Positions 7,022-42,366 of a DNA stretch of 64,000 nt are shown here, piece by piece. The first letter of the stretch is position 1; every line of letters begins with the position of its first letter. The notes under the pieces were generated by a model, which worked only from the letters and a program-made list of their open reading frames with translations, was not told where the DNA came from and did not search any database. A program made the translations under genes and the position numbers. Source of the DNA: a virus. Lineage: Duplodnaviria > Heunggongvirae > Uroviricota > Caudoviricetes > Demerecviridae. The stretch is taken from IMG/VR virus record IMGVR_UViG_651703040_000001; one strand, written 5' to 3'.

Positions 7022-7459
7022 TTAATGAAGTTGTTTACCACTTCTTAAAATAGTGGTCGTTTTCATAAGACTTAACGTTGTATCACGCTTTTTGATTTGT
7101 TTGTCGAGTTCATTGGTACGTTTGTCAATGTAAGCGTTAATAGCCATATTCATAGCGGAGGCGAGATCTTCTTTGGTTATCTCTTCATTATCTAAAGCTA
7201 ATTTAGCTAAAGAATCGAAAGTACTAGAAAGTCCTATAAGATCAGAAGCTTCCCCAGCCAAAATAGGGTTAACATTATCTATTGTTGCTTCTAACATGGA
7301 GTTAACAATATCTTTTCCGTCTACTAGACCAGATTCAATATCACTCTCCCATTCCTTCATCTGCTCCAGCAATGGATTTTTCTTTTCTGTCATGGTAAAG
7401 GTTTCCTGTGTCAGTTGGTAAGAAGGACGATTGAGCTTTAGGTGGATGTTGTTTAGCAA
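7022..7459 (-). CDS. hypothetical acidic protein (up to 145 aa)
   Basis: ORF. Probably starts at the internal ATG at about 7393 (SD AGGAAACC). Confidence 0.5.
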   Translation of the reverse strand: MLNNIHLKLNRPSYQLTQETFTMTEKKNPLLEQMKEWESDIESGLVDGKDIVNSMLEATIDNVNPILAGEASDLIGLSSTFDSLAKLALDNEEITKEDLASAMNMAINAYIDKRTNELDKQIKKRDTTLSLMKTTTILRSGKQLH

Positions 7460-25053: not shown

Positions 25054-25251
25054 TCATTGTGGGGGAATATTAATAATTCGTCCATCTACACAATAAACGG
25101 TACTAGGGATTGTACTGTATATGTAGAAATTCTTTATATTACTCTCTCCGCCACAGAAATTTTTAGCAAATTCATACTCTTTATTAATGGTTGAGTCAAG
25201 TTTAAAACAACCAGTAAGTAGGAATACAGATAGCAATAAAACTTTCTTCAT
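25054..25251 (-). CDS. small lipoprotein (65 aa)
   Basis: MKKVLLLSVFLLTGC signal peptide with lipobox. Promoter module at 25255-25320. Confidence 0.5.
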   Translation of the reverse strand: MKKVLLLSVFLLTGCFKLDSTINKEYEFAKNFCGGESNIKNFYIYSTIPSTVYCVDGRIINIPPQ

Positions 25252-28034: not shown

Positions 28035-28310
28035 TTAGTCGAACTTAGGAGTGACATTTAAGGAGAACGGAAGTTCGAAAACTTCTTCACCCTCATCACT
28101 AACAGTAATTACACGACCTTTAAGTTCAGACATTGAAATATCAATATCAGCTCTTGCATCTGGAGCCATGCCAGCTTCAACACATTTAGCTTTAATTTCC
28201 GGCAAAAGTTCTACATCATAGAAATAAAGCCATTCAATCTCACCTTCCCAGCCTTTCCAGGATTTACAGATTGCACTTTCAATACCAGTTGCTATAGCAC
28301 TATTTTGCAT
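28035..28310 (-). CDS. hypothetical protein (91 aa)
   Basis: ORF. Promoter module at 28311-28380. Confidence 0.5.
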   Translation of the reverse strand: MQNSAIATGIESAICKSWKGWEGEIEWLYFYDVELLPEIKAKCVEAGMAPDARADIDISMSELKGRVITVSDEGEEVFELPFSLNVTPKFD

Positions 28311-28400
28311 TCGTTAACTCCTTCATCAATTTATATAACTATTATACCAGAAATTTAAAGCAAAAGGCAAGTACATTTTTAAAAATTCTGTTTGGAGGAG

Positions 28401-28607
28401 CTAAACTCCAGATTCTTCAGCCAAGTCTAGACTAATAAGAGATATAGCCATAATTGCCGCTCCATGCTCTTTTTCTCCAGTCTCTTTAGCTAGAGTTATA
28501 ATGTCAAGAAATTGCTTATGAAAATCTGCAACCTCTTGAGTTATACCTGCCTCAGCAATCATGCCTTTAAGCATGAAACGTTGTGCTGTAATTTCAGGAT
28601 TAGCCAT
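28401..28607 (-). CDS. hypothetical protein (68 aa)
   Basis: ORF. Confidence 0.4.
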   Translation of the reverse strand: MANPEITAQRFMLKGMIAEAGITQEVADFHKQFLDIITLAKETGEKEHGAAIMAISLISLDLAEESGV

Positions 28608-28781
28608 GTTGTTTCTCCAGTTTCATCTTTAATAGTCTACAAATAAAATCAATATCTTCATCCGTGCCTAGATCTCTGTCTTCAAGAGTTGCCTTGAAGT
28701 TTTTAGTCAATTCCATAAGGATGACTTCCCTAGAACGACGTGTTGGCGGAGGTGGATGTCTATACATCTTATTTCCTTAGT

Positions 28782-28960: not shown

Positions 28961-29015
28961 TATAAGATATATTATATTAGAAATTTAGCTTCATAGCAAG
29001 AAAATTTTTCAAGTT
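28961..29015 (-). promoter_or_regulatory. early promoter module driving the distal tRNA pair
   Basis: Minus sense: TTGCTATGAAGC...TATAAT...CTTATAAAT. Confidence 0.55.
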
Positions 29016-29546
29016 TTCGGTAGACATCTCATCCACATCTACGGGAGAAACAAAGCCGTTCAATTTTCTAGCAAATTTTTCACCTGCAGGATCATTATCC
29101 CCGACAGCTACCAATTTAAAAGGTAATAATTTCAGTTGCTTTAATAACGCTTTTCCTGGAGAAGAACCCAACATTGCTAGGGCTGGATAACCAGCGTTAT
29201 GTAACGCAACTGCCTTAAATACAGATTCAGCAATCAATACTACTTTTTCATCTCCATTGAGAGTTTCTAGTCCCCATACACACTGGGTAGTAGAATACGT
29301 AAAATACTTAGCTTCAAAGGGGCACTTACCATGACCTTTTGGAGCAGAAGGATTATACGTTTGATAGCCTCTCAACATTCCAGAGAAGTCATACAATGGG
29401 ACTGTTAGCCACCCTTCTGGGCTTAACCAGCAATGATATTTATCTGTATCAAATCCTCTAGATAAGAGGTGCTGTGTTAGTTCATCAACATTCATATTTG
29501 GTTCCTCTCTCAAATTTATAGATATATTATACAGAGAATTTAGCAT
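28977..29546 (-). CDS. Toprim-domain protein (189 aa as the track ORF; probably starts at 29495)
   Basis: IAESVFKAVALHNAG (conserved E) and VAVGDNDPAGEKFARKL (DxD), which together make a Toprim fold. Promoter module at 29515-29580. Confidence 0.55.
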   Translation of the reverse strand: MLNSLYNISINLREEPNMNVDELTQHLLSRGFDTDKYHCWLSPEGWLTVPLYDFSGMLRGYQTYNPSAPKGHGKCPFEAKYFTYSTTQCVWGLETLNGDEKVVLIAESVFKAVALHNAGYPALAMLGSSPGKALLKQLKLLPFKLVAVGDNDPAGEKFARKLNGFVSPVDVDEMSTENLKNFLAMKLNF

Positions 29547-29669
29547 TCAAGCAATCAAATTTTTTAACTTTTTATAGGAAAATCATAGGGCACTTAAGGG
29601 TAGCAGATAAGTGGTGAGGACCAAAATTTGTGACCCCACTAAAAATCCGGGGGCAATTTTTAAAGACCC

Positions 29670-29752
29670 CTTGACATTTTCGCTGGGGTAGTGTAAAGTG
29701 TATGTTATGGATGAGTGATCAAAGAGACACACATTTTTCTATATACTAGGAG
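29670..29752 (+). promoter_or_regulatory. sigma70-consensus-like promoter (TTGACA -35) for the plus-strand island
   Basis: TTGACA at 29683-29688. 17-nt spacer. TAAAGT/TAGTGT as -10 candidates. Unlike the TTGCTa early module. Confidence 0.5.
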
Positions 29753-29761
29753 GTGTCAAAA

Positions 29762-30751
29762 ATGACAGAAGAAGTAGCTAAGAGTCCTGAGACCGTCGCT
29801 AGCGTTGCAGCAGAACTGCACCGTCACGAGGAATCAGATAAGAAAAAGTGGGAGAAGGTCAGAGCCTACGAAGAGAAACATCGTGAACACGATGAAGATG
29901 ATGAAGAAGATGATGATGAACATTGTCATAAAAATGGAAAACATAAAATGCAAGAACCAGTAAACGTATTCACTAGTGGCTTCCCTGGCCTACTGGGTGG
30001 TTACCCAGCAAACGCAAGTGCTTTCGGTGGTGAAGGTATGGGACTATTCGGAGCTATCCTAATCGGTGCTCTATTAACGGGCGGATTCGGTGGTTTCGGT
30101 GGATTCGGCGGACGTGGTGTAGTTGGTGATGGTACTGCAGTTGATGCAGTACTTCAGAACCAAGATACCGCTAGTATTCTAGCAGCTATTAACACTACTC
30201 GTACAGAAGCTAATCAGGGTACTGGAGCTGTTTTAAGCGCAGTTAACAATGGTTTTAGCCAGACATCCCAAAACCAGAGCCGTGATACTCAGTCTGTACT
30301 AACTACGATCTATGGTACAGGTGCTAATCTGTCTAATCAGATCTGCCAGGAAACTCGCAACGTTATTCAGGGTCAGTTCGATCTTTCTCGCCAGATTGAT
30401 CAATCTTTCGCAGCTAACCAGATAGCTCGTGCACAAGATAAGTTTGATTCTGCACAGATCGCTTTCCAGCAGACTTTACAAACTAATAACCAGTTTGCCG
30501 CTGTTCAGGCTCAGATGTGTGCTAACCAGAACTCTCTGGAACGTCAGATCGCTGAATGTTGCTGTGAACTTCAGACTGCGATCGCGGGTGTAACTACTGC
30601 GCGTATCCAGGATGAGTTAGACGCGTGTCGCCTACGTGAAGCAATCGCTGCGGGTAGCGGTGCTAACGGTCAGGTAATTAATCAAATCGCTTTAAGTCTT
30701 GGTACTATCACTCAGACTCTGGCTGGTCTGCAGGCTAAACTGCCGGCTTAA
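29762..30751 (+). CDS. low-complexity membrane protein (about 330 aa)
   Basis: Strong SD TAGGAGGTG. N-terminal His-rich acidic segment, a glycine-zipper hydrophobic stretch (GFGGFGGFGG), and a Q/N/S/T-rich tail with a CCC cluster. Codons are high-expression-like. Confidence 0.7.
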   Translation: MTEEVAKSPETVASVAAELHRHEESDKKKWEKVRAYEEKHREHDEDDEEDDDEHCHKNGKHKMQEPVNVFTSGFPGLLGGYPANASAFGGEGMGLFGAILIGALLTGGFGGFGGFGGRGVVGDGTAVDAVLQNQDTASILAAINTTRTEANQGTGAVLSAVNNGFSQTSQNQSRDTQSVLTTIYGTGANLSNQICQETRNVIQGQFDLSRQIDQSFAANQIARAQDKFDSAQIAFQQTLQTNNQFAAVQAQMCANQNSLERQIAECCCELQTAIAGVTTARIQDELDACRLREAIAAGSGANGQVINQIALSLGTITQTLAGLQAKLPA

Positions 30752-30772
30752 TATTAAGGGGAGGAGCCCATT

Positions 30773-31192
30773 ATGAGTAAATATGGTTTTGTAAATAACG
30801 GACTTAATCAAAGTATGGGCTCCCAGCAGCCCGTTCCGGGTCTGGATAACCCCTACTTACAACAGTTGCAACAGCGTTTAGCAGAAGCGCAACAGATGCA
30901 GCAACAACTCCAGCAAAACCCTGGAAGTGTGAGTCCTATGCAAATGATGCAGCAAATGAGCGGGCAGTCGCAAATGCCTCAACAAACGCAGCAACAGATG
31001 CCGCAGCAGCAGCAAGTTCAGCAACAAACCCAACAACCGCAGGTTTCTGCGGAAGGACAGGCAGTACTAGCCCTTTTCGAAGACTTCGCAAAGACAGAGG
31101 ATGGGAAGCAGCTTGTATCACTTATGGGTAAGTTTAATAGCTTCTGCCAAAGCCAAATTGCAAAAGCTCAAAATAGTGGTAATAACTCCTAA
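30773..31192 (+). CDS. Gln-rich (prion-like) protein (139 aa)
   Basis: SD GGGGAGGAG. The Q-rich region spans about 60 residues. The C-terminal part looks folded. Confidence 0.65.
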   Translation: MSKYGFVNNGLNQSMGSQQPVPGLDNPYLQQLQQRLAEAQQMQQQLQQNPGSVSPMQMMQQMSGQSQMPQQTQQQMPQQQQVQQQTQQPQVSAEGQAVLALFEDFAKTEDGKQLVSLMGKFNSFCQSQIAKAQNSGNNS

Positions 31193-31201
31193 GGAGGAAT
31201 T

Positions 31202-31396
31202 ATGTGTTGCAGAAAATCTGTTTCGTGCTGCCCAATGCCTGTAGCACGTTGTTGCTCTCCAGCAATGTTTACGCAAATACCGGCGTTCAATCCGTTTGCC
31301 TTTAAGCCTACTCTTATCCTGCCCCCTAGAGTAGATTTTCAGTCAAGATTGGCCTCCCGTATGGGTGGTTGCTGTAACAAGAGTATATGGTTCTAA
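31202..31396 (+). CDS. Cys-pair-rich small protein (64 aa)
   Basis: SD AAGGAGGA. Four CC doublets (MCC..SCC..RCC..GCC). Terminators follow at 31412-31445 and 31456-31492. Confidence 0.55.
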   Translation: MCCRKSVSCCPMPVARCCSPAMFTQIPAFNPFAFKPTLILPPRVDFQSRLASRMGGCCNKSIWF

Positions 31397-31411
31397 AGAA
31401 CCAAACAATAA

Positions 31412-31492
31412 AGCCCCTAGTCGAAAGACTTAGGGGCTTTTTCTTTTGCCTTAAATACAGAAAAGCCCGCGCTCTCGGAGAAAACGCGGGCT
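31412..31492. terminator. pair of GC hairpins between convergent genes (bidirectional terminator)
   Basis: AAGCCCCTAG...CTTAGGGGCTTTTTC and AAAAGCCCGCGCTCTCGGAGAAAACGCGGGCTT. Confidence 0.7.
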
Positions 31493-31516
31493 TGGTTCGA
31501 AGATTACGTGTAACTA

Positions 31517-32464
31517 TTACTTGTTACGCATATCCATAATCATTTGGCCATCGTAGCCAGTGCCAACCACAGTCTGCGGAACACCACCTTGATACTTCTG
31601 AGCACGAATCATTTCAACTTCCAGTTGCTTCCAGCGAATCATCTCAGGAGTAATGGTACGTTGTAATGCGGCGTTAGCTTCAGCTTCTTTCTTAGCTGCA
31701 TACAGTTTAGCATCAGCGTCACGTTCATTGGCAATAGCTTGGTTGTTGCGAGCTTCACGATCTGCTTCTGCTTGTTTAACTTTCTGCTGAGCTTCTTGTT
31801 CAACACGAGCCAGTTCAGCTTTAGCAGCATTAACCTGTTCTTCACGAACTTTTGTATTCTGTACCTGTTCCATGATTACCGGTGGCAAAGTAATATCCTG
31901 AAGGAACACCTGCTTAACTGTGTAACCATATGGGCGTGCATACTCTTCAACTTCCTGTTGAATTGCAGTTTGCAATTGAGCCTGAATTTTAGCATCAAAC
32001 AAATCTTGTGCTTTAGGTACAGACTTACCAAACTCACGAATAGTAGACAGTAATTTTTCAGTTACATATTTGTCTAACGCTTGATCCTGAGTACCTGCGT
32101 TAATACGGTTAATCGGTGCCTTAGAACCATCAAACTGCAACATAACAGTCAGGTCAACAGTGGATTTAAACTTATCCTGACTAGGAACCTGAAGTTTATC
32201 TAATTTTAGAGCAATATCTTTAGTACTAAAAGTATCGAAAGAAGCGAAAGGATTTACAATATGAAAGCCGGGTAATACTGGGCTAGGGTCAACTTTACCC
32301 AGGAAAGTCTGGGTTTTAACAGTACCGTCTTGAACAACAGTATAAGAGTTAAGGGCCAGAACTAAACCTACCAAACCAACTGCAGCACCAATCCCCCAAC
32401 GTTTAATAGTACGAATTACTTTCTGCTCAGAAGTCAGTTCTTTCATATTTTTAGTATTAAACAT
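31517..32464 (-). CDS. SPFH/band-7 (HflC/HflK-like) membrane protein (315 aa)
   Basis: N-terminal TM helix, an SPFH core, and a long A/E/Q-rich coiled-coil C-terminus, matching the HflK/C architecture. Confidence 0.7.
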   Translation of the reverse strand: MFNTKNMKELTSEQKVIRTIKRWGIGAAVGLVGLVLALNSYTVVQDGTVKTQTFLGKVDPSPVLPGFHIVNPFASFDTFSTKDIALKLDKLQVPSQDKFKSTVDLTVMLQFDGSKAPINRINAGTQDQALDKYVTEKLLSTIREFGKSVPKAQDLFDAKIQAQLQTAIQQEVEEYARPYGYTVKQVFLQDITLPPVIMEQVQNTKVREEQVNAAKAELARVEQEAQQKVKQAEADREARNNQAIANERDADAKLYAAKKEAEANAALQRTITPEMIRWKQLEVEMIRAQKYQGGVPQTVVGTGYDGQMIMDMRNK

Positions 32465-32573: not shown

Positions 32574-33074
32574 TTTAAGTATTTTTAAGAACTCTCGTAA
32601 AAACTCTTAAAAATACAGACGATACCGGGAGAGTCATAAGTCTCACTCATTAAGTATTTCAAGACAAAATACGGTAACGTCTATTATTTTCCAGTTTAAG
32701 TCAGGGTGACTTAGTGGTTATGTCCTGCGGTATATTGAGGACTCGGTTAGGCTTGGGGTCATGACTTCCCGCCTTTTGCTGCTACTCAACAGGAATTATC
32801 GCGAATTACCTGTGCTATTGTGCACCATTAGTGACATCTCTCATGTCAGCATTTCCCACTTTGTGGATAGCTTGAAAAACTACTCCGATATGGAGAAAGA
32901 ACTTCACTATCCTAGAATACCTTCTAAAGTTCTTCTTTAGCCTGGACATAGTTAAATCGTAATAAAACTATTCAGCAGACTGGTTGGTTAGTCTGGAACC
33001 AACTACCGCGTGGTTTAGGCAGTGCGCAACTAACCTCGGAAGCTTTTACGTTAAAAGCATCAGTTATCCAGTTC

Positions 33075-33150
33075 TTACCGACCGTAGGATTCGAACCTAC
33101 ATCTTCCACCAGTTACGGCTTGATAATACCAATTATACTAGGACGGCAGT
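33075..33150 (-). ncRNA. tRNA-like element
   Basis: T-arm GTAGG-TTCGAAT-CCTAC and a plausible acceptor GCCGTCC/GGTCGGT, but no clean anticodon stem and no CCA. Confidence 0.3.
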
Positions 33151-33356
33151 GTTACTACATAAGTGATTTCCACACCCCACTATTTATAAATTAGAGAAGA
33201 GTTTAGGGGAGAGGTTTCAGACGCCTCATTTTACACGTTCTAGCCACTAACCGGGATTGCCGCCCCCTGTGTGCTAGTTTTACAACTAACCCACCGACTC
33301 TATTCAATGCGCTCCGGTTGGGATTCTGCATTCAGCGTAATCGGCCCGCTGTTCCC

Positions 33357-33415: not shown

Positions 33416-33851
33416 ATTCGCCAGCAATCTGAGCAGCAGTACCACCATCATAACGCCCAGGAAATTCTTCCTTAATCGCTTTCATCAGCATACCTTTTGT
33501 AATTCCAGGGTTTAGCTTAACTAATTCTGCAAAGTATTTACGAATCTCAGTATCAGATAACTGAGGTGGCAGATACTCCTGCAACCACTTATTTAGAATG
33601 TATTCATATTGAGCAGACTGCAAACTATAACTATCAAGATCTTGACCATGAAGTTTAGCTTTCATCTGGTTAATGCTTTTTAGTTGAGCTTTGAGATAAG
33701 ACACAAATTGTTCAGAAGTGATGAAATCTTTATCAATACGCTGAAGATCCCCAATTATGGTCTGATAGCTTTTAGCGACTTCTTTATCAGAACCATTAAA
33801 CTTAGAATCCTGCAAAGCTCTGCGCAAAACATCTAAAATATTCTCTTCCAT
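33408..33851 (-). CDS. GatB/YqeY-domain protein (147 aa)
   Basis: The C-terminal half (YLPPQLSDTEIRKYF...GMLMKAIKEEFPGRYDGGTAAQIAGE) aligns, from memory, with E. coli YqeY. Confidence 0.65.
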   Translation of the reverse strand: MEENILDVLRRALQDSKFNGSDKEVAKSYQTIIGDLQRIDKDFITSEQFVSYLKAQLKSINQMKAKLHGQDLDSYSLQSAQYEYILNKWLQEYLPPQLSDTEIRKYFAELVKLNPGITKGMLMKAIKEEFPGRYDGGTAAQIAGEFN

Positions 33852-34025
33852 TATTTCATTCCTAACGCCTGGTTAAAAGATTGTTCTGTCATAACTGCTG
33901 AGACTTTGGCGAAATCAAACTTTTTAGGGTTCGTAGTGATTTCAGCAACGTTAGAAGTTTTAACAGTTTTCGTAGTACGAATACCGCGGGTGTTAACACC
34001 AATAATTACAACTGATTTCATATTT
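33852..34025 (-). CDS. small hypothetical protein (57 aa)
   Basis: Not in the track. ATG preceded by a GAGAGGAAGCG SD. Promoter module at 34026-34090. Confidence 0.4.
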
Positions 34026-34089
34026 CGCTTCCTCTCATTAATTTATGGAAGTATTATACGGAAATTTAAGTATTTAAGCAAGTAAATTT

Positions 34090-34557
34090 TTAAGTTTTAG
34101 TGACAACAGGTTTATAGAATGTATGTCCCTTAATCTTAGTTGTTTTCTTAAATTTCTTTGTCCAGTAAGGTTTATCTTTACCACTATGGAAGTATAGTGC
34201 TCCATATGTAGGATCTTGTGGTAAATCAACGTAGTATATCACTCTAGCTAAATTCTTAGCGGTTTGCCAAGCCTCATCAGTTTTATCAACTTTTGGTCTC
34301 TTAGATACCCAAGAGAACTGGTTAGACTGATATACTACTTTACAGTAGGAATCTGGGAATTTACCGGAGTTTACACGGTTTTTAGTAACATGTGCAATCG
34401 CCGTCATTCCCTTTATGCCCTCACCACGACTCTCGAAATAGATATTTTTAGCAATGCAATCTATTTCTTTTGCATCGTGCGATGCCTGACTACTAAAGCT
34501 GAAGGTAAGGGCAGCTACTAAAAGCAAAGCTGCCTTCATTCTTTTTACTCCTGCCAA
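34090..34557 (-). CDS. secreted SleB-like cell-wall hydrolase (155 aa)
   Basis: Signal peptide plus an SleB/Hydrolase_2-like domain. Confidence 0.6.
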   Translation of the reverse strand: MAGVKRMKAALLLVAALTFSFSSQASHDAKEIDCIAKNIYFESRGEGIKGMTAIAHVTKNRVNSGKFPDSYCKVVYQSNQFSWVSKRPKVDKTDEAWQTAKNLARVIYYVDLPQDPTYGALYFHSGKDKPYWTKKFKKTTKIKGHTFYKPVVTKT

Positions 34558-34862
34558 TCATATTCAACACGATTGGGATTTTCTTTATACCCTAAGTCAA
34601 GCAAATCATTACGCATATTTTGCTTAGCTACTGGGTTCGAGGTTACTAGTACCACTTTCTTTGGTCTCTGCCCAAATTCTAAGAGTAAACGAAGAATTTG
34701 ATAACCTTCCATACCATCTACAGCCAAGTCATTATCCATATAAACGAAGTGGCCGGTGGTATCAGTTTTATTCAGAAACTCTACAGCGGCTTCTGGGGTT
34801 CGAATGATAATGTCCATTCCGTGAAGATTACGCACATCATCAATCAAAATATGAAAAGTCAT
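34545..34862 (-). CDS. receiver(REC)-like small protein (105 aa)
   Basis: ILIDDV...DNDLAVDGMEGYQIL...VVLVTSN layout, resembling a CheY-like fold. Confidence 0.4.
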   Translation of the reverse strand: MTFHILIDDVRNLHGMDIIIRTPEAAVEFLNKTDTTGHFVYMDNDLAVDGMEGYQILRLLLEFGQRPKKVVLVTSNPVAKQNMRNDLLDLGYKENPNRVEYDWQE

Positions 34863-35304
34863 AATAGCCTCGTTTCATCAATTTAAAAATATATTATACA
34901 TATAATTTAGTAGATTAGCAAATACATTTTTAAATTGTGAAACTAGTAAACCGATAAACAGCCTAGAGGCGCCACAGGCCATATCTTATGAGCCATGTAC
35001 CTTTGATCTAGGGTTTGAATCATCAACGAATACTTTGCATCTTTTAGCTTTAGAAGTTTAGAAGTTTGAGTCCTTTAAACTTTTCAGCTTTCATACTTAA
35101 ATGTTGATCTTTGAAGTTGTGTCGGTAATATCAACGACGCTTTGTTCTTACGTGTCAGCTTAAAAGGCTGGTGTAATAAACATAATCTCCAATAGATTAT
35201 ACTTTATAGTATGGTCAGCGGTCCTATTTAACCTCGTATTTCAACCGCTGCTGCGAGGTAAGATGCTTGGGCTTTCGTCTACCGATTTACTAGCTTTTAA
35301 ATTA

Positions 35305-35943
35305 TTACTCTACTTCAATGAAGGTAGAGGCGTTAGACTCGGACAGAACAAAGTCAACATTTGTTGCAAAGTCCTGATATTCCTCGTCATGCTGCTTAAT
35401 CAGCTTTTCCAGTTCCAACGGATCAATCAAGAATGGAGTATTCTTGAGTTCCAGCAGGTTGAGCTGCATTTTAACTTCATCTTCGGAAGTTTTCTTATCG
35501 CGGGTAGCCATGCTATCCTGCAAACGCTCATATTTAGCATCAAACTGTGCTTTCTGCGTATTAAACTTAACCGTAGCGGCATGGAACTGCTTACGCATGT
35601 TAGCCAGCAGTTGAGCTTTAAGTTCCATAGAACGCTTAGCTTCAATTGCTTCCGCAACAGTCATCTTACGAGAGCCAATCTCAACGATTGTTTCCGCATT
35701 GCTTTTAATCAGAGCAGCTTTGATACGATCACGCTGAGACATCATATCCAGGAGAGATTGGAAATCTGCCTTAATACGAGCAGACAGATCGTCTACTTCG
35801 ATTGCAGCGCCAACTACAACCTTATTTTTATCCTTACCCTCACCAACAGCGATCAGAAGCTGCTGTTCAGTAGCTTTACGGATTTTAGCTTCCAGAGATT
35901 TGATGGTTGCCAGAGCACGAGTTTTAGAAATACGAGTAGTCAT
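35305..35943 (-). CDS. hypothetical coiled-coil protein (212 aa)
   Basis: ORF on the coherent strand. An antisense plus-strand ORF was rejected. Confidence 0.55.
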   Translation of the reverse strand: MTTRISKTRALATIKSLEAKIRKATEQQLLIAVGEGKDKNKVVVGAAIEVDDLSARIKADFQSLLDMMSQRDRIKAALIKSNAETIVEIGSRKMTVAEAIEAKRSMELKAQLLANMRKQFHAATVKFNTQKAQFDAKYERLQDSMATRDKKTSEDEVKMQLNLLELKNTPFLIDPLELEKLIKQHDEEYQDFATNVDFVLSESNASTFIEVE

Positions 35944-35995
35944 TGTTTCTTCCTTATATGAAGTTTAAGATTTGAATTTGTTTAAATTCGGTCTA

Positions 35996-36178
35996 TTACA
36001 GACCAATTGCCAGCAGAGTGCGCAGAACAGTATCGTTACTGTTATCAATTTTAGGATTAGCGCGATTTAGCAGATCAAAGATTTTCTGGATACCTGATTG
36101 ACGTTCAGCCATACGACGGATACCCAGATTACGAGTAGCTTTCTTACCATTTTTACGAACATTTTTAGATACTGGCAT
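35996..36178 (-). CDS. small basic protein (60 aa)
   Basis: K/R-rich ORF. Promoter module at 36180-36250. Confidence 0.45.
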   Translation of the reverse strand: MPVSKNVRKNGKKATRNLGIRRMAERQSGIQKIFDLLNRANPKIDNSNDTVLRTLLAIGL

Positions 36179-36248
36179 ATTTGTTTTCCTTTTATTGTTT
36201 TCTCAAATTTATGAATATATTATACAGAATTTTGGAGCCGGAAGCAAA

Positions 36249-36950
36249 TCAAATTTTCATTTTTTCGATCATAGCTGCAACACAATAGCTTTCAACTAAG
36301 GCATCAAATGCAGGATCATGCTTAACCGGATAGATCCCATAACGAATAGTGTCCATCTTCTCCATTTTAGCTATTGCCCAGCTAATACCTTCGGTCTCTA
36401 GAGCCTTATAACTGTATCCAGCTTGCATCCAGAGATTACGAAGAGATCGAACATTACCCAAATTCCAGAATTTCCACGGAACTACCTCTTCATTGGTTCC
36501 AGCATGGAACGTGTTTGCAGAGTAGATAGTCATATCAAACTCTGGGCCATTGCCATAATACAAAGCATTTTCGCCTAGAGCCAACTCCATAATATTTTGA
36601 GCCATAGAGAAGGCAGCATAGTTAGAGCCGAGTTTATTAGTACAATGATGTTTACCGTTTTGGAAGGCAATCAGTTTTGGATTACGTTCCTTCATAGCTT
36701 CCATAATGTGGATAGCAGACGGGCTATTTTTAGCTTGATCCATCCAGAATGCTAGAGTAGATGCTGTAACTTTGGCACCAGAATTAAGCTGATCCTGCAC
36801 ATCCAAAGTAACAAATACTAGATCAGGGTCTTTATCAATCCCATGCATAGCCACAAAAGCGAAAGAAGGCATTGCGATATGAGTAGTACCACAATCTCCT
36901 GGGGTTCCTAGAGATTCAATATCTAGCATACCAAATGGTTTTACTTTCAT
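36249..36950 (-). CDS. DEDDh 3'-5' exonuclease (DnaQ-like, 233 aa)
   Basis: Exo I motif LDIESLG and Exo III motif HDPAFDA. Confidence 0.7.
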   Translation of the reverse strand: MKVKPFGMLDIESLGTPGDCGTTHIAMPSFAFVAMHGIDKDPDLVFVTLDVQDQLNSGAKVTASTLAFWMDQAKNSPSAIHIMEAMKERNPKLIAFQNGKHHCTNKLGSNYAAFSMAQNIMELALGENALYYGNGPEFDMTIYSANTFHAGTNEEVVPWKFWNLGNVRSLRNLWMQAGYSYKALETEGISWAIAKMEKMDTIRYGIYPVKHDPAFDALVESYCVAAMIEKMKI

Positions 36951-36978
36951 AACTTATCCTTTATTGTGTAGAAAACTA

Positions 36979-37215
36979 TTAAAGAGCTGTCTCTTTAATA
37001 GACTCCCACTTCTTGGGGTCTTTAAAACCAGGAAGCATATCCTCACTGACATCCCAGTTTTCTTCCATATAGAAGTCCGGCCATTCATTCCAGCTACCTT
37101 CCAGCTCTTCATAGCAGGTGTCCATTACCTCATGACTAGAAAGTCGTGTATAATCTCTAGCTGACTTATGAGTGCTAGCACGGTTAAAATCGTTCTTTGC
37201 TACAAAATTACGCAT
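36979..37215 (-). CDS. acidic small protein (78 aa)
   Basis: ORF. Terminator at 37231-37248. Confidence 0.45.
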   Translation of the reverse strand: MRNFVAKNDFNRASTHKSARDYTRLSSHEVMDTCYEELEGSWNEWPDFYMEENWDVSEDMLPGFKDPKKWESIKETAL

Positions 37216-37256
37216 AGTTTCTCCAAATAAGAGGGGCTTTCGCCCCCTGATTTAAA

Positions 37257-37473
37257 TCACTTGCCCAGCAGTTTAAGGATATTTTCCATAATAGTTTGGG
37301 CAGATTTTTCACTCTTGTTAGTTTCAGCCAACTTTAAAGCGAGTTCTTCCTGCTGTTTCTGAATATCCGCAGCAATTTTTTTGATCAGCCTCAATACGAG
37401 CTTGAAGCTCATCAGTGATAGTGGTAAAGGAAGCAACAATTTCAGTAACAGAACGTGGTTTCTTAGAGAACAT
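37257..37473 (-). pseudogene. small ORF split by a +1 frameshift at an A7 tract
   Basis: Frame A (MFSKKPRSVTEIV...EADQKN) and frame B (IAADIQKQQEELALK...LLGK) meet at AAAAAAA near 37376-37385. Confidence 0.4.
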
Positions 37474-37537
37474 AAAAAATATCCTTGATTAGTTAGAGAA
37501 TTAGTCGATTGTAGGGGCTTTCGCCCCTATTTATCTA

Positions 37538-38053
37538 TTACTTCGCTTTACGCTTGCGAGCTGGTTTAGCAGATTTACGAGCAGAATCACCCGTGAACTT
37601 AATGCCTACACCGTAACACAGAGCACGAACATTATCTTTACTATACTCTACGCCAAAGATATTTGGCTTAACAGAACCAAACTGTCCACGAGTATCACGC
37701 AATACATCTGCTGTTGGTTTACGCTTCTGGTTAACTGCCTTCTCATAGTCTTTCATAGACATACCATTACGAGAGAACAATTCAGCCCCAGCGTTAAAGC
37801 TCAGGGAAACTGGGACAGATTTGTGGCCGTAATTTTCTACATACATAACCATTTTGTAGGATTTACGGGTGGCATTTTTAGCTTTAGGCTTCTGACGAAT
37901 CGGAGCCGGACTATTCAGTGCTTGCGCAGCCTGAGCATCGGTAGGATGCTTACGCAGGTGGCGTTCCAGACGAGCTTTGCGATTAGCCTCGGTCTGTGGG
38001 AAAGTTTTAACTGCCGGAGCTGCTTGAGTTTTTGCGTTTTTCTGCTTAGCCAT
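37538..38053 (-). CDS. basic nucleic-acid-binding-like protein (171 aa)
   Basis: K/R-rich termini. Promoter module at 38054-38125. Confidence 0.55.
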   Translation of the reverse strand: MAKQKNAKTQAAPAVKTFPQTEANRKARLERHLRKHPTDAQAAQALNSPAPIRQKPKAKNATRKSYKMVMYVENYGHKSVPVSLSFNAGAELFSRNGMSMKDYEKAVNQKRKPTADVLRDTRGQFGSVKPNIFGVEYSKDNVRALCYGVGIKFTGDSARKSAKPARKRKAK

Positions 38054-38136
38054 TATTTATTTTCCTTTTTGTTTATCAATTTATGAAGTATATTATACGA
38101 GAATTTGAAGCGTTTAGCAAATGAATTTTTTAAAAA

Positions 38137-38415
38137 TTATCTACCAACCATCTTAGCTTGTTCGGCATCTGAGACATATTGATACGCTCCTTTATTATAC
38201 GCCGGGGCAGTACACATTTTCTTACGCTCAATCTCTTCTTGAGCTTTTCTTTCGCGTTCAGCTAATTCTTCGTCCAGGTAAACTAAACGTTGCTCTGGAG
38301 GAGGTGGAAGACGTGTTTCTGGCTCACCAATATTAGCCTTTCTTATTTGACGAGGTGATTGTGCACGTTTTCTCAATGGTTTAAATCCTAATGAATTTGA
38401 GTTATAAATCCGCAT
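38137..38415 (-). CDS. hypothetical protein (92 aa)
   Basis: ORF. Promoter module at 38415-38480. Confidence 0.5.
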   Translation of the reverse strand: MRIYNSNSLGFKPLRKRAQSPRQIRKANIGEPETRLPPPPEQRLVYLDEELAERERKAQEEIERKKMCTAPAYNKGAYQYVSDAEQAKMVGR

Positions 38416-38491
38416 AAAGCCCTCCTCACTTTCAATACTAATATTATACTAAATTAGAGAGCTTTAAGCAAGAGAATTTTTAATTTATTTA

Positions 38492-38980
38492 TTACATCTC
38501 AGCCATTTCAGCTTCAGTAATAACTGTGTTACATAAGGCATCTACAGCTTCATTACCACTAATACCAGAATGTCCTTTAACCTTAATAAAGGTAGGGTTA
38601 GTGTTATGAAAGTTGATATACTGCTGTGTTAATTTAAATGCTTCCTGCCAAAGTTCTAGATTAAGAGGAACTTCACCATCTGCTTTCTTCCAGCCTTTCC
38701 TTTGCCAAGAAAACATCCAACTTTCCATGCCATTTTTGCAATAAGCAGAGTCAGTATAGATAGCAATTGGTCTATTATCTTTTTTAACAGACCAACGTAG
38801 AGCTTCTACAATAGCTGTGAGTTCCATCTCATTATTTGTAGTTTTAGGATTATAACCAGATTTAGAACCTAAACGATCGTCGTTATCATCATAGACAATA
38901 AAACCCCAAGCACCTGGACCTGGGTTAGACTTACAAGCACCATCTGTGTAAATGTGGAAAACCGACATTATACCTCCCAA
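38492..38980 (-). CDS. rnhA: ribonuclease H (162 aa)
   Basis: IYTDGACKSNPGPGAWG...TNNEMELTA...DSAY...H motifs of RNase HI. Confidence 0.8.
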   Translation of the reverse strand: MGGIMSVFHIYTDGACKSNPGPGAWGFIVYDDNDDRLGSKSGYNPKTTNNEMELTAIVEALRWSVKKDNRPIAIYTDSAYCKNGMESWMFSWQRKGWKKADGEVPLNLELWQEAFKLTQQYINFHNTNPTFIKVKGHSGISGNEAVDALCNTVITEAEMAEM

Positions 38981-39249
38981 CTAATTTTAAGACCCATGTC
39001 TACAAAGGCGGCTTCTCGGTAGTATTGAGAGATATGATACCCCTTATCCGATAAGGTTTTTAGTACTGATTTAGCTGCTCCTGACATTTCTCTAGGATTA
39101 TATAGCCACCTAGCGTAAGGATTATCTCGAATAATTACTTCTGTATTTCCAGACTTAGCAGCTTCTACAATCTTTTCTTCTATAAACTTTAGAAATGCGG
39201 GTACTTCTGTTAATCCTGCAAGTTCTTGAGCTTCTTTGGCTGAAATCAT
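38968..39249 (-). CDS. hypothetical protein (93 aa)
   Basis: ORF. Promoter module at 39250-39310 and a terminator at 39321-39340. Confidence 0.5.
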   Translation of the reverse strand: MISAKEAQELAGLTEVPAFLKFIEEKIVEAAKSGNTEVIIRDNPYARWLYNPREMSGAAKSVLKTLSDKGYHISQYYREAAFVDMGLKISWEV

Positions 39250-39342
39250 TATATACCTCCAATTTATAAAATATATTATATTTAAATTTCACTAAATAAG
39301 CAAATGAAATTTAAATATAATAGCCCCGAAGGGCTATTTAAA

Positions 39343-40197
39343 TTACACAGTGAATGGATATGCAATAGCAGGATGGTGTTCGTAGCCACGAACAGTAAAA
39401 TCATCCTTGCTTACCCAGGTCAATACATCCTCCAGAGTTCTGATATTTGGATTGATTTCTAGAGTAGGAGGTGCAAAAGGTTTACGATCGAATTGCTTAT
39501 GCTCCATCAAAACATTATACTGATCCTCATAGATATGAAGATTGATAATCTTCTGGCGTGCAATTCCTGGTTTAAGGCCTGTAATCTGAGCCATTAATGC
39601 TAGAAGCGTATAGCACTGAACCATGTTAAATACTTGGCCTAACAGGAAGTCATTAGATCTCTGGAAAGAGTTCAGGTATAATGTATCTCCCAAAATAGAG
39701 AACTGATGAGTGTGCATACATGGACGTAAGCAACCCTTTGAGAACTCTCCCGGATTCCAGAAGGTTAGAATTTCCCCACGATCATCAATGCCCTTTTTCA
39801 GATTATGATAAATCTTGGCTAGTTGGTCAAACATAAGACCATCGGAATTAGTCCACTGACGTCCTTGAACACCATAGACTCGTCCCATATCATCCTCACC
39901 TTTACGGTATGGATTGTCTAGCCAAGCTGAGTTTTCATTTGCATTAGCATTCCATGTGTTAACACCAATAGCGCGGAATTGTGCTGCTGAGTCATACCCA
40001 CGTAGATACCCAATCATTTCCATTATTGCTTGTTTTGCAAACGCCTTACGAGTAGTAATAAGGGGGAATTCCCCTGCACCTACGTTAAAAGTAAAGTCTG
40101 CATCAACAATAGTGAGGCAACGAACCCCTGTTCTAGGATTCGTTACCCACTGACCATCTGATAGAATACGTTTTCCAACTTCGATATACTGATCCAT
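39343..40197 (-). CDS. thyA: thymidylate synthase (284 aa)
   Basis: Active-site [10 protein letters not shown] and other conserved ThyA blocks. Confidence 0.85.
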
Positions 40198-40730
40198 TAA
40201 TAAGTAACCAATTCCTGTACAAATCGCAGGCTGTTATCACTGTTTGCGCCAGTTGCGTAAACTAAACGAGTAGATTCATAGTTGTAATCTAGAATCGTAT
40301 TATCCAGATGTACATCTGCCTCTAGTTTTTGAGTACTAAAGATCGTGGATACAAAAGCACTTTCAATATGTCCATGAATATACATTTCGTACAGTAATGT
40401 TGCACCACCTAAAACCACTGTCTGTTGATCTTTTAAGAATGTAGGTAATGTATCCCCAATCTTTGAAATTGGGGTATAGATACCCTGTTTAACATCATCA
40501 GGCAGAGGACGATCCGCACGAATAAAGAGGTCGGATTCTCCAATCATACGTTGCCGAACAACTTCTGGAAGTGCTAAATAAGTACCCGCACCAATGATGA
40601 TGTTATCTGGATTCAACACGTCCAGTTGAGAATAGAAAGCATCTAGTTCTTCTTTGAAGGAACCCCATGGAAGTTTACCGCGGAGGCCGAACTCCCCATT
40701 CGGCCCAACTGCATACATTGCTGTAATCAT
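40197..40730 (-). CDS. folA: dihydrofolate reductase (177 aa)
   Basis: N-terminal [22 protein letters not shown]. Sits in a Td-DHFR-nrdB arrangement. Confidence 0.75.
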
Positions 40731-41872: not shown

Positions 41873-42366
41873 TTAGCTTCTCCGTTGTTTGCAAAGTCCC
41901 CATGAAGTTCTAGTAGTTTGATGTCTCTCCATTCTATAGCTTCTTCTAGGGTTTTAAAAGTTTTTGTATAAGATTTGCCGTCTTTGCCTATCCTAACCTG
42001 AAATGAAGTGCCTTTTACACGAATATTTTTCATTCCAAGCTGGTTATCCGCTCTTGCACACGAGTTCATAGAATTTTGAGAACTCGTGGCTTCACGGAGA
42101 TTATCCCAGGCACAATTGGACGGATTAGTATCTTTATGGTCGATTTTTCCTTCTGGTATTTCTCCAGTCATATACAAGAAGGCTAGGCGATGAGCTAAAT
42201 ATTGAACTCCTTCAACTTTTATACGAAGATACCCTAATTTATCGTAGGTTCCTGCTTTAGCGTTCCATAAATGCTTTGCTAAAGTTTTTCTTGGGAGCCA
42301 GGTAAATTCGCCAGTTTCAGGGTCATAGGAGATTAGCTCTTTTAATCTACTCTGTGTTAATTTCAT
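41869..42366 (-). CDS. HNH homing endonuclease (165 aa), free-standing between nrdA and nrdB
   Basis: HNH motifs. Paralog of ORF 16724-17221. Overlaps the nrdB start by 4 bp. Promoter module at 42367-42420 and a terminator at 42418-42443. Confidence 0.75.
   Translation of the reverse strand: MKLTQSRLKELISYDPETGEFTWLPRKTLAKHLWNAKAGTYDKLGYLRIKVEGVQYLAHRLAFLYMTGEIPEGKIDHKDTNPSNCAWDNLREATSSQNSMNSCARADNQLGMKNIRVKGTSFQVRIGKDGKSYTKTFKTLEEAIEWRDIKLLELHGDFANNGEAK

What the first reader, a model, noticed from the sequence alone, without database searches (positions are those of the whole stretch)
29650..31500. Plus-strand three-gene island encoding low-complexity proteins, inside a minus-strand gene block
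Within 26 kb of minus-strand genes, three plus-strand genes with strong SDs (TAGGAGGTG, GGGGAGGAG, AAGGAGGA) sit behind a consensus TTGACA-type promoter. That promoter is unlike the phage's repeated TTGCTa early module. The first protein has a His/acidic metal-binding-like N-terminus, a glycine-zipper hydrophobic segment (LFGAILIGALLTGGFGGFGGFGG) and a long Q/N/S/T-rich tail with a CCC cluster. The second is a Gln-rich prion-like protein. The third is a 64-aa peptide with four Cys-Cys doublets. Codon usage is highly optimised and GC is higher than in the surroundings. A bidirectional terminator pair ends the island, convergent with an SPFH gene. I know of no described phage function with this combination. 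Speculatively it could form membrane-active or condensate-forming assemblies, or be a modified-peptide precursor plus partner proteins.
Basis: partly seen in the sequence, partly recalled or inferred. Interest (0 to 1): 0.8.

Follow-up and report, generated by a model that had tools for sequence, protein, structure and literature searches.

The report
Dispensable three-gene T5 accessory operon
This is a real, conserved but dispensable three-gene operon of T5-like phages (T5.077-079), sitting in the phage's anti-defence island next to a known retron inhibitor; its products match nothing characterised, so it is a good candidate for an unknown host-interaction function.

Summary
The window is Salmonella phage SPC35, and the island is the T5.077-T5.078-T5.079 operon. 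It has its own non-early sigma-70 promoter (T5 "P12") and a bidirectional terminator.

All three ORFs are real genes. dN/dS is 0.1-0.35. The trio is conserved in about 220 T5-like phages, in distant T5-like contigs, and in Pseudomonas phage KPP23, where the third gene is annotated in the wrong frame.

The operon lies inside the viable T5 st0 deletion. It has also been deleted independently in other Demerecviridae. No product appears in the BF23 virion proteome. It is therefore accessory, not needed for replication, virion structure or lysis.

It sits beside Rad, a known retron inhibitor, in the experimentally defined anti-defence island.

ORF1 belongs to a large uncharacterised phage family: 175 clusters at 50% identity, and 284 IMG/VR contigs for the distant branch. 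The family has a glycine-zipper hydrophobic segment, a roughly 190-residue low-charge helix and a near-universal CCC motif. ORF2 is two conserved modules joined by a variable Q/P linker. ORF3 always begins Met-Cys-Cys.

No Pfam, NCBIfam, PADLOC, PDB or fold match exists. Best guess, at low confidence: a late-expressed, membrane-anchored, thiol- or metal-stapled assembly with a host-interaction or counter-defence role. The RiPP and prion readings are poorly supported.

The parts
29657..29699 (+). Promoter, equivalent to T5 'P12'. It has an A/T-rich TTTTTAAAG element, a -35 TTGACA (29671-29676), a 17-nt spacer and a -10 TAAAGT (29694-29699). It lacks the early-class ATATT discriminator.
   Evidence: Found by the scan and annotated as promoter P12 in T5. 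It is conserved in distant T5-like contigs L005 and L006, as TTTTAAAG..TTGACA..TA(A/G)AGT. It resembles T5 PK28b and late PJ5, not the early class.
29762..30751 (+). ORF1 (SPC35_0068 = T5.077; phrog_8119), 329 aa. In order: a conserved N-terminal helix (12-44), a His/acidic linker, a glycine-zipper hydrophobic segment (about 93-112), a Gly-rich linker, then a roughly 190-residue A/Q/T/N-rich low-charge helix (136-326) carrying the invariant CCC at 266-268.
   Evidence: AF2 model with 118 sequences: pLDDT 76.5, helix 136-326. KD hydropathy 1.72 over 19 residues. dN/dS 0.14-0.18. Fop 0.67, rank 5 of 108. SD TAGGAGGTG at 29747-29755.
30773..31192 (+). ORF2 (SPC35_0069 = T5.078; phrog_7894), 139 aa. 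It has a conserved N-terminal helix (YLQQLQQRLxEAQ), a variable Q/P-rich linker, and a conserved C-terminal domain (EGQAVLALFEDFAKTEDGKQLVSLMGKFNSFCQS).
   Evidence: dN/dS 0.12-0.29, with alignment across T5-like, L005, L006 and KPP23 sequences. SD AAGGGGAGGAG at 30756-30766.
31202..31396 (+). ORF3 (= T5.079; unannotated in SPC35), 64 aa. The peptide starts Met-Cys-Cys, has four CC doublets, is P/F/S-rich and has almost no acidic residues. Its SD (TAAGGAGGAA, 31190-31199) overlaps the ORF2 stop codon, so the two genes are tightly coupled.
   Evidence: It is present in 222 phage records and annotated in T5. MCC...CC peptides sit at the same position in KPP23, L005 and L006. BLASTP against the KPP23 peptide gives E = 0.002. 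In-frame dN/dS is 0-0.43, the lowest of six frames. None of 50 shuffles gave an MCC+CC ORF.
31410..31449 (+). Intrinsic terminator of the operon: a 13-bp G+C-rich stem followed by TTTTTCTTTT.
   Evidence: Fold energy -21.7 kcal/mol, z -5.3. T5 annotates it as 'efficient bidirectional rho-independent terminator' / ter1. It is retained in rutana after loss of the cassette.
31463..31493 (-). Intrinsic terminator of the convergent SPFH gene. Its stem contains the T5-type nick consensus GCGC (31469-31472).
   Evidence: searches (14-bp stem; -24.1 kcal/mol, z -4.8), and the T5 annotation of a major single-chain interruption at the homologous position.

Best explanation
Shown, with high confidence:
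- The island is the autonomous accessory operon T5.077-T5.078-T5.079 of T5-like phages.
- It has its own non-early sigma-70 promoter and its own terminator.
- It is under purifying selection.
- It is dispensable in the laboratory and has been lost repeatedly in nature.
- It has been exchanged as a unit with Pseudomonas phages.
- It lies in the phage's anti-defence / tRNA-rich island, directly beside the retron inhibitor Rad.

Inferred for the proteins:
- ORF1 is an abundantly made protein. It is probably single-pass and membrane-anchored, inserting through a glycine-zipper hydrophobic segment.
- ORF1 carries a roughly 190-residue (about 28 nm) low-charge helix that must oligomerise into a rod or bundle.
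- The near-universal CCC triplet probably staples or charges that oligomer, by disulfide or metal.
- ORF2 (two conserved modules joined by a flexible Q/P linker) and ORF3 (a Met-Cys-Cys, Cys-doublet peptide) have no signal peptides. They are translationally coupled partners that probably dock on ORF1 through their cysteines.

Inferred function, at low confidence: the complex forms late in infection at the inner membrane. It modifies the infected cell's envelope or its interaction with competitors (counter-defence or superinfection-exclusion type). It does not serve replication, virion structure or lysis.
For: Identity and autonomy:
- The window is 100% identical to SPC35.
- T5 annotates promoter P12, T5.077-079 and the bidirectional terminator.
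- The promoter is conserved in distant relatives and is unlike about 30 early promoters.
- It resembles PK28b and PJ5. PJ5 was validated as late, and all known early promoters carry ATATT, which P12 lacks (PMC7472727).

Real genes:
- dN/dS is 0.14-0.18 for ORF1, 0.12-0.29 for ORF2 and 0-0.35 for ORF3.
- All three co-occur in about 222 records.
- The same trio occurs in KPP23, L005 and L006, including the MCC peptide.

Dispensable and accessory:
- The operon lies inside the T5 st0 deletion, 33667-41891.
- Rutana and AKFV33 show independent deletions with different boundaries. Rutana keeps the last 15 nt of ORF3.
- It is absent from the BF23 virion proteome.

Anti-defence context:
- The upstream gene is 99% identical to PhiSP15 ORF75, which is Rad.
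- An anti-AVAST 2 activity of the island remains unassigned.

ORF1 architecture:
- Invariant Gly positions and CCC.
- Profile search found 175 representatives; 93 of 118 keep CCC and 76 of 118 keep the Gly-rich segment.
- The AF2 model shows the long helix.
- Fop is 0.67.
Against: - No experiment or homology links the operon to any function.
- The retron screens credited only fragments F6 and F8 (tRNA-Tyr and Rad). It is not stated whether any fragment contained the cassette.
- Membrane insertion is predicted only from hydropathy (1.72, borderline). Topology is unresolved, because the charge bias is weak.
- The long helix shows no significant heptad periodicity.
- Late timing is inferred only from promoter resemblance.
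- In distant family members the ORF1-like gene sits next to major-head and scaffold genes or tail genes, which hints at a morphogenetic role instead.
- ORF2 and ORF3 are confined to the T5/KPP23 clade, so the 'complex' is an inference from operon structure.
Confidence: 0.4

Rival explanations
1. Morphogenesis or virion accessory. ORF1 would be a non-essential fibrous or decoration-type protein (like fibritin or head fibres), or an assembly factor. ORF2 and ORF3 would be its chaperones or partners.
For: - In two distant subfamilies the ORF1-like gene is adjacent to major head protein (phrog_11589, phrog_247) and scaffold (phrog_194) genes.
- In eiAU and Seuratvirus it directly follows the tail genes. 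In KPP23 it abuts the terminase and head genes.
- The promoter is late-like.
- Codon usage suggests high expression.
- ORF1 has a very long helix.
- The low-charge N/Q/T/S-rich composition is typical of phage fibres (own knowledge).
Against: - The BF23 virion MS/MS lists 18 proteins, including trace DHFR and Clp protease, but no cassette product. BF23 carries the cassette.
- T5 st0 lacks the operon yet is used as a normal infective stock. By my own knowledge it is also the standard strain for structural work.
- The hydrophobic glycine zipper is atypical for a soluble fibre.
Confidence: 0.15
2. Metal- or thiol-handling system. The His/acidic N-terminus, the CCC triplet and the Cys-doublet peptide would bind, store or buffer a metal (Cu, Zn or Ni), or act as a redox or electrophile sink during infection.
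For: - His/acidic stretches recur in independent long-N-terminus family members, for example HHYHHHHHEHYE in P0008 and P0013, and KHKHKH types in P0046 and P0071. 18 of 118 members have at least 5 His in 30 residues.
- Where ORF1-like proteins lack the His-rich segment, the neighbouring gene is His-rich, as in eiAU gp09 and STP-SP5.
- CCC is kept in 93 of 118 members.
- ORF3 has 8 Cys in 64 residues.
Against: - There is no match to any metal-binding family.
- The His-rich segment is absent in KPP23 and in the short members.
- CC and CCC are not classical chelating spacings (own knowledge).
- Outside the cysteines ORF3 is poorly conserved.
Confidence: 0.15
3. Envelope-fusion or lysis accessory, spanin-like or class-I-fusion-like. 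ORF1 would be anchored in the inner membrane, span the periplasm with its 28-nm helix, and perturb or fuse membranes at lysis.
For: - The architecture is a hydrophobic Gly-rich peptide followed by a long helix.
- 'GLFGAI' is identical to the start of the influenza HA2 fusion peptide.
- Profile hits against PDB, though insignificant (E 0.01-1), are dominated by HA2 and coronavirus S2 fusion-peptide/HR1 regions.
- Cell-wall hydrolase or endolysin genes lie within a few kb in several contexts.
Against: - T5 st0 and the other deletion mutants are propagated and plated as normal viable stocks without the operon.
- ORF3 has no lipobox or signal peptide.
- There is no C-terminal anchor and no HR2.
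- The E-values are insignificant and can be explained by composition.
Confidence: 0.08
4. One reading: a condensate- or prion-forming Q-rich system, or a ribosomally made modified peptide (ORF3) with partner proteins.
For: - ORF2 is Gln-rich and ORF1 is Q/N-rich.
- ORF3 is small and Cys-rich, like some RiPP precursors.
Against: - The Q/P tract of ORF2 varies in length and is nearly absent in L005, while the flanking modules are conserved.
- ORF1's Q/N-rich region is a conserved helix predicted with confidence.
- No modifying enzyme occurs in or next to the cassette in T5-like phages, KPP23, L005 or L006.
- ORF3 has no conserved leader/core organisation.
Confidence: 0.07

Closest known systems
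Phage 'moron' / anti-defence-island cargo. Examples are T5 Rad (PhiSP15 ORF75), the T5 tRNA-rich region, and the HK97 gp15-type superinfection-exclusion moron (the last from my own knowledge).
   Same: - It is a self-contained unit with its own promoter and terminator.
- It is dispensable in the laboratory and polymorphic among close relatives.
- It has been exchanged between unrelated phages.
- It lies inside the roughly 8-kb region whose loss sensitises T5 and SP15 to defence systems.
   Different: - No anti-defence or exclusion activity has been assigned to it.
- Only fragments F6 and F8 rescued phages in the retron screens.
- It has three genes with no similarity to any PADLOC or known anti-defence protein.
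Two-component spanins (lambda Rz/Rz1).
   Same: ORF1 has a hydrophobic anchor followed by a long helical, Cys-containing region. It is accompanied by a small (about 60 aa) Pro-rich, Cys-containing partner gene.
   Different: - ORF3 has no lipoprotein signal or lipobox.
- ORF1 has a 90-aa charged N-terminal domain.
- The operon is dispensable.
- There is no sequence similarity.
Class I viral fusion subunits (influenza HA2, coronavirus S2), and the phiX174 DNA pilot protein H (the latter from my own knowledge).
   Same: A Gly-rich hydrophobic peptide (GLFGAI...) is followed by a very long N/Q/A-rich helix. These were the top, though insignificant, PDB profile hits.
   Different: - E-values are 0.01-1, so there is no evidence of homology.
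- There is no second heptad repeat and no C-terminal anchor.
- The CCC motif and the partner genes have no counterpart.
PHROG families phrog_8119 / phrog_9288 / phrog_16490 (ORF1 family), phrog_7894 (ORF2) and phrog_25697 (the Seuratvirus MC..CC peptide).
   Same: ORF1 and ORF2 are full-length members of phrog_8119 and phrog_7894 (E 7e-204 and 7e-78). ORF1 shows weak links to phrog_9288 and phrog_16490.
   Different: All of these families are annotated 'unknown function'. ORF3 has no PHROG hit.

Membership tests
phrog_8119 / phrog_7894 (uncharacterised phage protein families) | Full-length profile match | tested here: met
   ORF1 matches with E 7.1e-204 over 1-329. ORF2 matches with E 7.1e-78 over 1-139.
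Wider 'Gly-zipper + CCC' phage family (defined here) | A Gly-rich hydrophobic segment, a long N/Q/T/A-rich helix, and the motif A[EQ]CCC[ED]xK...TRxLI about 60 aa from the C-terminus | tested here: met
   Profile search found 175 representatives at E<=1e-3. CCC is present in 93 of 118 and the Gly-rich segment in 76 of 118. 284 IMG/VR contigs carry the distant branch.
Anti-defence island / tRNA-rich region cargo of T5-like phages | Location within the roughly 8-kb dispensable region that carries Rad and the tRNAs | tested here: met
   The operon is inside the st0 deletion. It is adjacent to Rad, which is 99% identical to SP15 ORF75.
Anti-defence island / tRNA-rich region cargo of T5-like phages | Demonstrated inhibition of a host defence system | not testable with these tools
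   Published screens credit only F6 (tRNA-Tyr) and F8 (Rad), plus F7 for Ec83. The anti-AVAST 2 determinant is unassigned. There are no PADLOC hits.
Two-component spanin (Rz/Rz1) | The o-spanin has a lipoprotein signal peptide with a lipobox Cys | tested here: not met
   ORF3 and its equivalents start MCC with no hydrophobic leader.
Two-component spanin (Rz/Rz1) | Required for lysis of Gram-negative hosts | tested here: not met
   The operon lies in the viable T5 st0 deletion, and the other deletion mutants are also viable.
Class I viral fusion protein | Significant sequence or fold similarity, HR1 plus HR2, and a C-terminal membrane anchor | tested here: not met
   PDB profile hits have E 0.01-1 only. 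Foldseek PDB and BFVD hits all have E>0.9. The model shows a single helix with no C-terminal hydrophobic segment.
RiPP precursor cassette | A modifying enzyme gene in the cluster, and a conserved leader/core organisation | tested here: not met
   The cassette has only the three genes in T5-like phages, KPP23, L005 and L006. ORF3 is conserved only at MCC, the CC doublets and a few P/F positions.
Prion-like / Q-rich condensate protein | The Q/N-rich tract is the conserved, functional element | tested here: inconclusive
   The Q/P tract varies in length and composition and is nearly lost in L005, while the flanking modules are conserved. Phase behaviour cannot be tested here.
SPFH operon partner (NfeD-like) | Co-inheritance with the SPFH gene; NfeD domain | tested here: not met
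   There is no NfeD or other Pfam hit. The SPFH gene is retained where the cassette is deleted. The cassette occurs without SPFH in KPP23, L005 and L006.
Virion structural protein of T5-like phages | Detected in purified virions | tested here: not met
   BF23 virion MS/MS Table 1 lists 18 proteins and none is from the cassette. This is a literature result, for one phage only.

The most novel reading that the evidence does not exclude
T5.077-079 would encode a previously unrecognised kind of phage-made membrane assembly. A glycine-zipper-anchored protein with a roughly 28-nm helix (founding a large dark-matter family marked by an invariant CCC) would be covalently or metal-linked through cysteines to a Q-linker adaptor and to a Met-Cys-Cys peptide. 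The peptide's exposed N-terminal Cys-Cys might be lipidated or metal-loaded. The assembly would be made late in infection to neutralise a host defence, for example the unassigned anti-AVAST 2 activity of the T5 anti-defence island, or to exclude competing phages.
Probability: 0.2. Interest if true: 0.8.

Novelty: categorically new. Interest (0 to 1): 0.6.

Why it matters
T5 is a classical model phage, and its tRNA-rich / anti-defence island is under active study (Rad, tRNA-Tyr, tRNA-Lys versus PARIS).

- This operon is the largest protein-coding block of that island without any assigned role. It is strongly conserved where present, yet it has been lost independently in at least two lineages, which is the usual signature of a conditionally useful host-interaction module.
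- The work gives three concrete leads:
  - a defined three-gene unit with exact boundaries, ready for deletion and complementation tests, including against AVAST 2;
  - a third gene, the MCC peptide, that is missing or mis-framed in most annotations;
  - a link between T5.077 and a large uncharacterised phage family (175 clusters at 50% identity, hundreds of viral contigs) defined by a CCC motif. One experiment in T5 could therefore annotate a wide stretch of phage dark matter.
- If the function turns out to be mundane, the finding is still a useful annotation correction.

Tried and rejected
- Curated-library scans of all three proteins (Pfam, NCBIfam, PADLOC, PDB sequences): nothing above noise.
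- First AF2 run with 12 sequences: pLDDT 47.5, unusable. The second run with 118 sequences gave a confident single long helix. Foldseek against PDB and BFVD then found only generic long helices such as vimentin, all with E>0.9.
- Heptad analysis: the top period was 3.7, no stronger than in shuffles, so I do not call it a canonical coiled coil.
- A Q-rich 140-aa neighbour in distant phage L027 looked like an ORF2 analogue. BLASTP found no alignment, so I rejected it.
- Neighbours of distant family members looked ferritin- or MazG-like by eye. Pfam gave no support, so I dropped the idea.
- Read-through or fusion of the three ORFs: they share a frame in SPC35, but this is not conserved in KPP23, L005 or L006 (coordinates). 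Rejected.
- Functional coupling to the SPFH gene: rejected, because the cassette and the SPFH gene are inherited independently.
- The SPC35 'Rz-like spanin' SPC35_0058 is a small lipoprotein that tells nothing about ORF1.
- The bacterial genome scan found one MAG contig only. A single search pattern was usable, so sensitivity was limited.
- Literature searches for T5.077/078/079 and T5p075-077 found no paper.
- The supplement of Klimuk et al. has no P12 data.
- Pairwise BLASTP of ORF1 against eiAU gp08 is not significant (E 0.61). That link rests on profiles and transitive hits only.
Full report
**Identity of the window and check of the observation**

The 2.1 kb around the finding is 100% identical to Salmonella phage SPC35, a Tequintavirus (T5-like). 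It is 90-98% identical to more than 200 other T5-like phages.

The three + strand ORFs are as described:
- ORF1: 29762-30751, 329 aa.
- ORF2: 30773-31192, 139 aa.
- ORF3: 31202-31396, 64 aa.

Each has a strong Shine-Dalgarno sequence. In the SPC35 and Lindwurm annotations they are the only + strand genes in a long run of - strand genes and tRNAs.

Other parts of the description also hold:
- GC is 0.46-0.49 in the island against roughly 0.36-0.40 around it.
- The promoter TTGACA-17-TAAAGT is at 29671-29699.
- Both terminator hairpins fold far better than shuffles.
- The convergent gene is an SPFH/Band_7 protein.

One claim needs trimming. By a simple optimal-codon index, only ORF1 is strongly optimised (Fop 0.67; window mean 0.47, sd 0.09; rank 5 of 108). 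ORF2 and ORF3 are average.

**What is already on record**

In phage T5 the operon is T5.077, T5.078 and T5.079. All three are 'hypothetical protein'. The record annotates promoter 'P12' upstream, an 'efficient bidirectional rho-independent terminator' downstream, and one of the major T5 DNA nicks in the adjacent hairpin.

ORF3 is annotated in T5 but not in SPC35, Lindwurm or most relatives. No paper in the searchable library mentions these genes by any of their names.

**All three ORFs are real genes and travel together**

ORF1, ORF2 and ORF3 are each found in 222-223 phage records.

Nei-Gojobori dN/dS values:
- ORF1: 0.14-0.18.
- ORF2: 0.12-0.29.
- ORF3: 0-0.35.

For ORF3 the annotated frame has the lowest ratio of the six frames.

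The strongest evidence is comparative. Pseudomonas phage KPP23 is an unrelated 63-kb phage, yet it has the same three consecutive genes:
- a 320-aa protein whose C-terminal half is 59% identical to ORF1;
- a 143-aa protein with the same C-terminal domain as ORF2;
- a 60-aa peptide MCCNQPVPQCCGP...RCCKKFDCCS. It lies in a frame different from the annotated ORF072. BLASTP against ORF3 gives E = 0.002.

Two distant T5-like contigs, with ORF1 only 40-45% identical, also have ORF2 followed at once by a 63-69-aa ORF starting MCC with a second CC.

In every one of these loci this is the only MCC-start ORF. In 50 shuffles of the 64-kb window no MCC-start ORF had a second CC.

**The promoter is a distinct, conserved class**

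The window contains about 30 copies of the early module 'AAAAATTT..TTGCTW-N17-TATAAT-ATATT..ATAAAT'.

The cassette promoter is different. It reads TTTTAAAG-N4-TTGACA-N17-TA(A/G)AGT, and this is conserved even in the distant contigs L005 and L006.

It resembles T5 PK28b (TTGACATTTTCGCC..TATACT) and PJ5 (TTGACA-N17-TATACT). Klimuk et al. validated PJ5 and PG25 as late promoters in vivo. They also state that all known early promoters carry ATATT in the discriminator, which P12 lacks (PMC7472727).

Late or otherwise non-early expression is therefore an inference, not a measurement.

**The operon is dispensable and polymorphic**

- GenBank AY734508 is the DNA missing from the viable heat-stable mutant T5 st0 (33667-41891 of wild type). 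The operon at 38064-39671 lies inside it. T5st0 is used as a normal infective stock.
- Other viable T5 variants also carry 'non-essential deletions' in this region: T5Mos, T5n and SP15m.
- About half of the Demerecviridae records have the two flanking genes but no cassette.
- The gaps have different boundaries. Rutana retains the last 15 nt of ORF3 plus the terminator, and AKFV33 has a larger gap. These are independent deletions from a cassette-bearing ancestor.
- Between SPC35 and T5, synonymous divergence is 0.47 in ORF1 but only 0.10 in ORF2 and 0.08 in ORF3. This indicates recombination within the cassette.
- The virion proteome of BF23, which carries the cassette, lists 18 proteins, and none is from the cassette (PMC10644984).

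Together these exclude an essential role in replication, virion structure or lysis.

**Genomic neighbourhood**

The gene immediately upstream (28977-29546, - strand) is called 'DNA primase' in RefSeq. It is 99% identical to PhiSP15 ORF75, which is Rad, a retron inhibitor.

Azam et al. call the roughly 8-kb region an anti-defence island or tRNA-rich region. Its loss sensitises T5 and SP15 to retrons Eco2 and Eco7, and sensitises T5 to AVAST 2. The AVAST 2 determinant is unassigned.

Of nine cloned fragments, only F6 (tRNA-Tyr), F8 (Rad) and F7 (against Ec83) scored. The text I could read does not say whether a fragment contained the cassette.

**The proteins**

ORF1 has, in order:
- a conserved N-terminal helix (12-44);
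- a His/acidic linker;
- a conserved 'M-x-EPVNVF' motif;
- a glycine-zipper hydrophobic segment (KD 1.72 over 19 residues);
- a Gly-rich linker;
- a region that AlphaFold2, with a 118-sequence alignment, models as one continuous helix from 136 to 326. Block-mean pLDDT is at or above 86 from about residue 160 to 300, with a peak of 98.

That helical region is A/Q/T/N-rich with 1% Lys, and it has no significant heptad periodicity. A 190-residue helix cannot stand alone, so an oligomeric rod or bundle is implied.

A profile search of 1.84 billion representatives found 175 relatives at E <= 1e-3. Most are 220-290 aa and lack the N-terminal extension. They share the Gly-rich segment (76 of 118) and the motif A[EQ]CCC[ED]xKxxIxxDGxxTRALI (CCC in 93 of 118). 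The distant branch occurs on 284 IMG/VR contigs, but on only one contig among 185,579 bacterial species genomes. Only one search pattern could be used for that scan.

Cultured members include eiAU gp08 and a Seuratvirus protein, both just after the tail genes. In the Seuratvirus a 69-aa 'MCGNACC...' peptide follows four genes downstream. In other branches the gene sits next to scaffold and major-head genes.

His-rich stretches recur, either as N-terminal extensions or in the neighbouring gene.

ORF2 is a conserved N-terminal helix and a conserved C-terminal domain with one Cys. They are joined by a Q/P tract of variable length.

ORF3 equivalents share Met-Cys-Cys, further CC doublets and P/F-rich, acid-poor sequence, and otherwise little.

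Nothing matches Pfam, NCBIfam, PADLOC, PDB sequences or folds. The only pattern among the insignificant PDB hits is class I fusion subunits (HA2, S2), aligned over the hydrophobic peptide plus helix. I treat this as a resemblance of architecture and composition only.

**Interpretation**

What is shown:
- It is an autonomous, conserved yet dispensable, horizontally mobile three-gene operon.
- It has a non-early promoter.
- It sits in the anti-defence island.

What is inferred:
- ORF1 is abundant, membrane-anchored and oligomeric.
- The cysteines of the three proteins link them, by disulfide or metal.
- The role is in host interaction (counter-defence, exclusion or envelope modification).

Topology is unresolved. 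Short-tail family members have fewer K/R before the hydrophobic core than after it (0.41 against 1.10). This is a weak hint of an N-out/C-in orientation, and it would fit the lack of signal peptides on ORF2 and ORF3.

The main rivals are listed with their tests:
- a morphogenetic or virion accessory, suggested by the synteny of distant relatives but weakened by the BF23 proteome and by st0;
- a metal- or thiol-handling system;
- a lysis or fusion accessory.

**Novelty and score**

The genes are in the databases as hypothetical proteins, so their existence is not new.

What is new here:
- the demonstration that the trio is a conserved mobile unit;
- the conserved MCC peptide gene, which is unannotated in SPC35 and most relatives and mis-framed in KPP23;
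- the link of T5.077 to a large CCC-motif family;
- the placement of the operon beside Rad in a dispensable island.

No known kind of system fits, so by distance from known systems I file it as categorically new. The function is unproven.

Interest is 0.6. It is a well-defined, testable unknown in a model phage and in a region of current interest, but no mechanism has been demonstrated.

Noticed in passing
window 28977-29546 (-): This gene is annotated 'DNA primase' (TOPRIM) in RefSeq. It is 99% identical to PhiSP15 ORF75, which is Rad, the retron inhibitor. The annotation is outdated. Homologues of SP15 ORF71-73 (the anti-retron Ec83 fragment) lie at about 28035-28767 (-).
   Followed up: yes
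window 31469-31472 (within the - strand terminator stem 31463-31493): The GCGC motif sits at the position homologous to the annotated major single-strand interruption of T5 DNA (the 32.6% nick). The nick site therefore lies inside a terminator hairpin.
   Followed up: partly
L003 (Pseudomonas phage KPP23, AB910392) 6936-7118 (+): The annotated ORF072 (L003 6938-7132) is in the wrong frame. The conserved product is the 60-aa MCC...CC peptide in the overlapping frame.
   Followed up: yes
window, both strands (e.g. 29554, 28999, 33399, 34921, 36247 on the - strand): About 30 copies of a highly stereotyped early promoter module, 'AAAAATTT..TTGCTW-N17-TATAAT-ATATT..ATAAAT', precede most genes and tRNA clusters.
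   Followed up: partly
window 31517-32464 (-): The SPFH/Band_7 gene (T5.080, mislabelled 'lipoprotein') is itself strongly codon-optimised (Fop 0.64, rank 6 of 108). It is retained in phages that have lost the cassette.
   Followed up: partly
window ~32574-33300: This ORF-free stretch after tRNA-Arg corresponds to T5 'rnaX', annotated as a stable RNA of unknown function.
   Followed up: no
L031 (Salmonella phage STP-SP5, OR498732) 2934-3640: The ORF1-family gene appears split by a frameshift: an N-terminal Gly-rich part at 2934-3197 and the rest at 3068-3640. This could be a sequencing error, a pseudogene or a programmed shift. A 69-aa 'MCGNACC...' peptide (phrog_25697) lies at 4905-5114.
   Followed up: no
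window 29762-31396 compared with T5 (L004): Synonymous divergence drops from 0.47 in ORF1 to 0.10 in ORF2 and 0.08 in ORF3. This indicates a recombination breakpoint inside the operon.
   Followed up: partly
L045, L077 and related IMG/VR loci: Distant ORF1-family genes have a conserved set of unknown neighbours: a roughly 98-aa protein ('IRFQNTG..IY'), phrog_17879 and DUF7841. They often lie next to major head and scaffold genes.
   Followed up: partly
window 25054-25251 (-): SPC35_0058, annotated 'Rz-like spanin', is a 65-aa lipoprotein (lipobox LLTGC) with no obvious i-spanin partner nearby.
   Followed up: no
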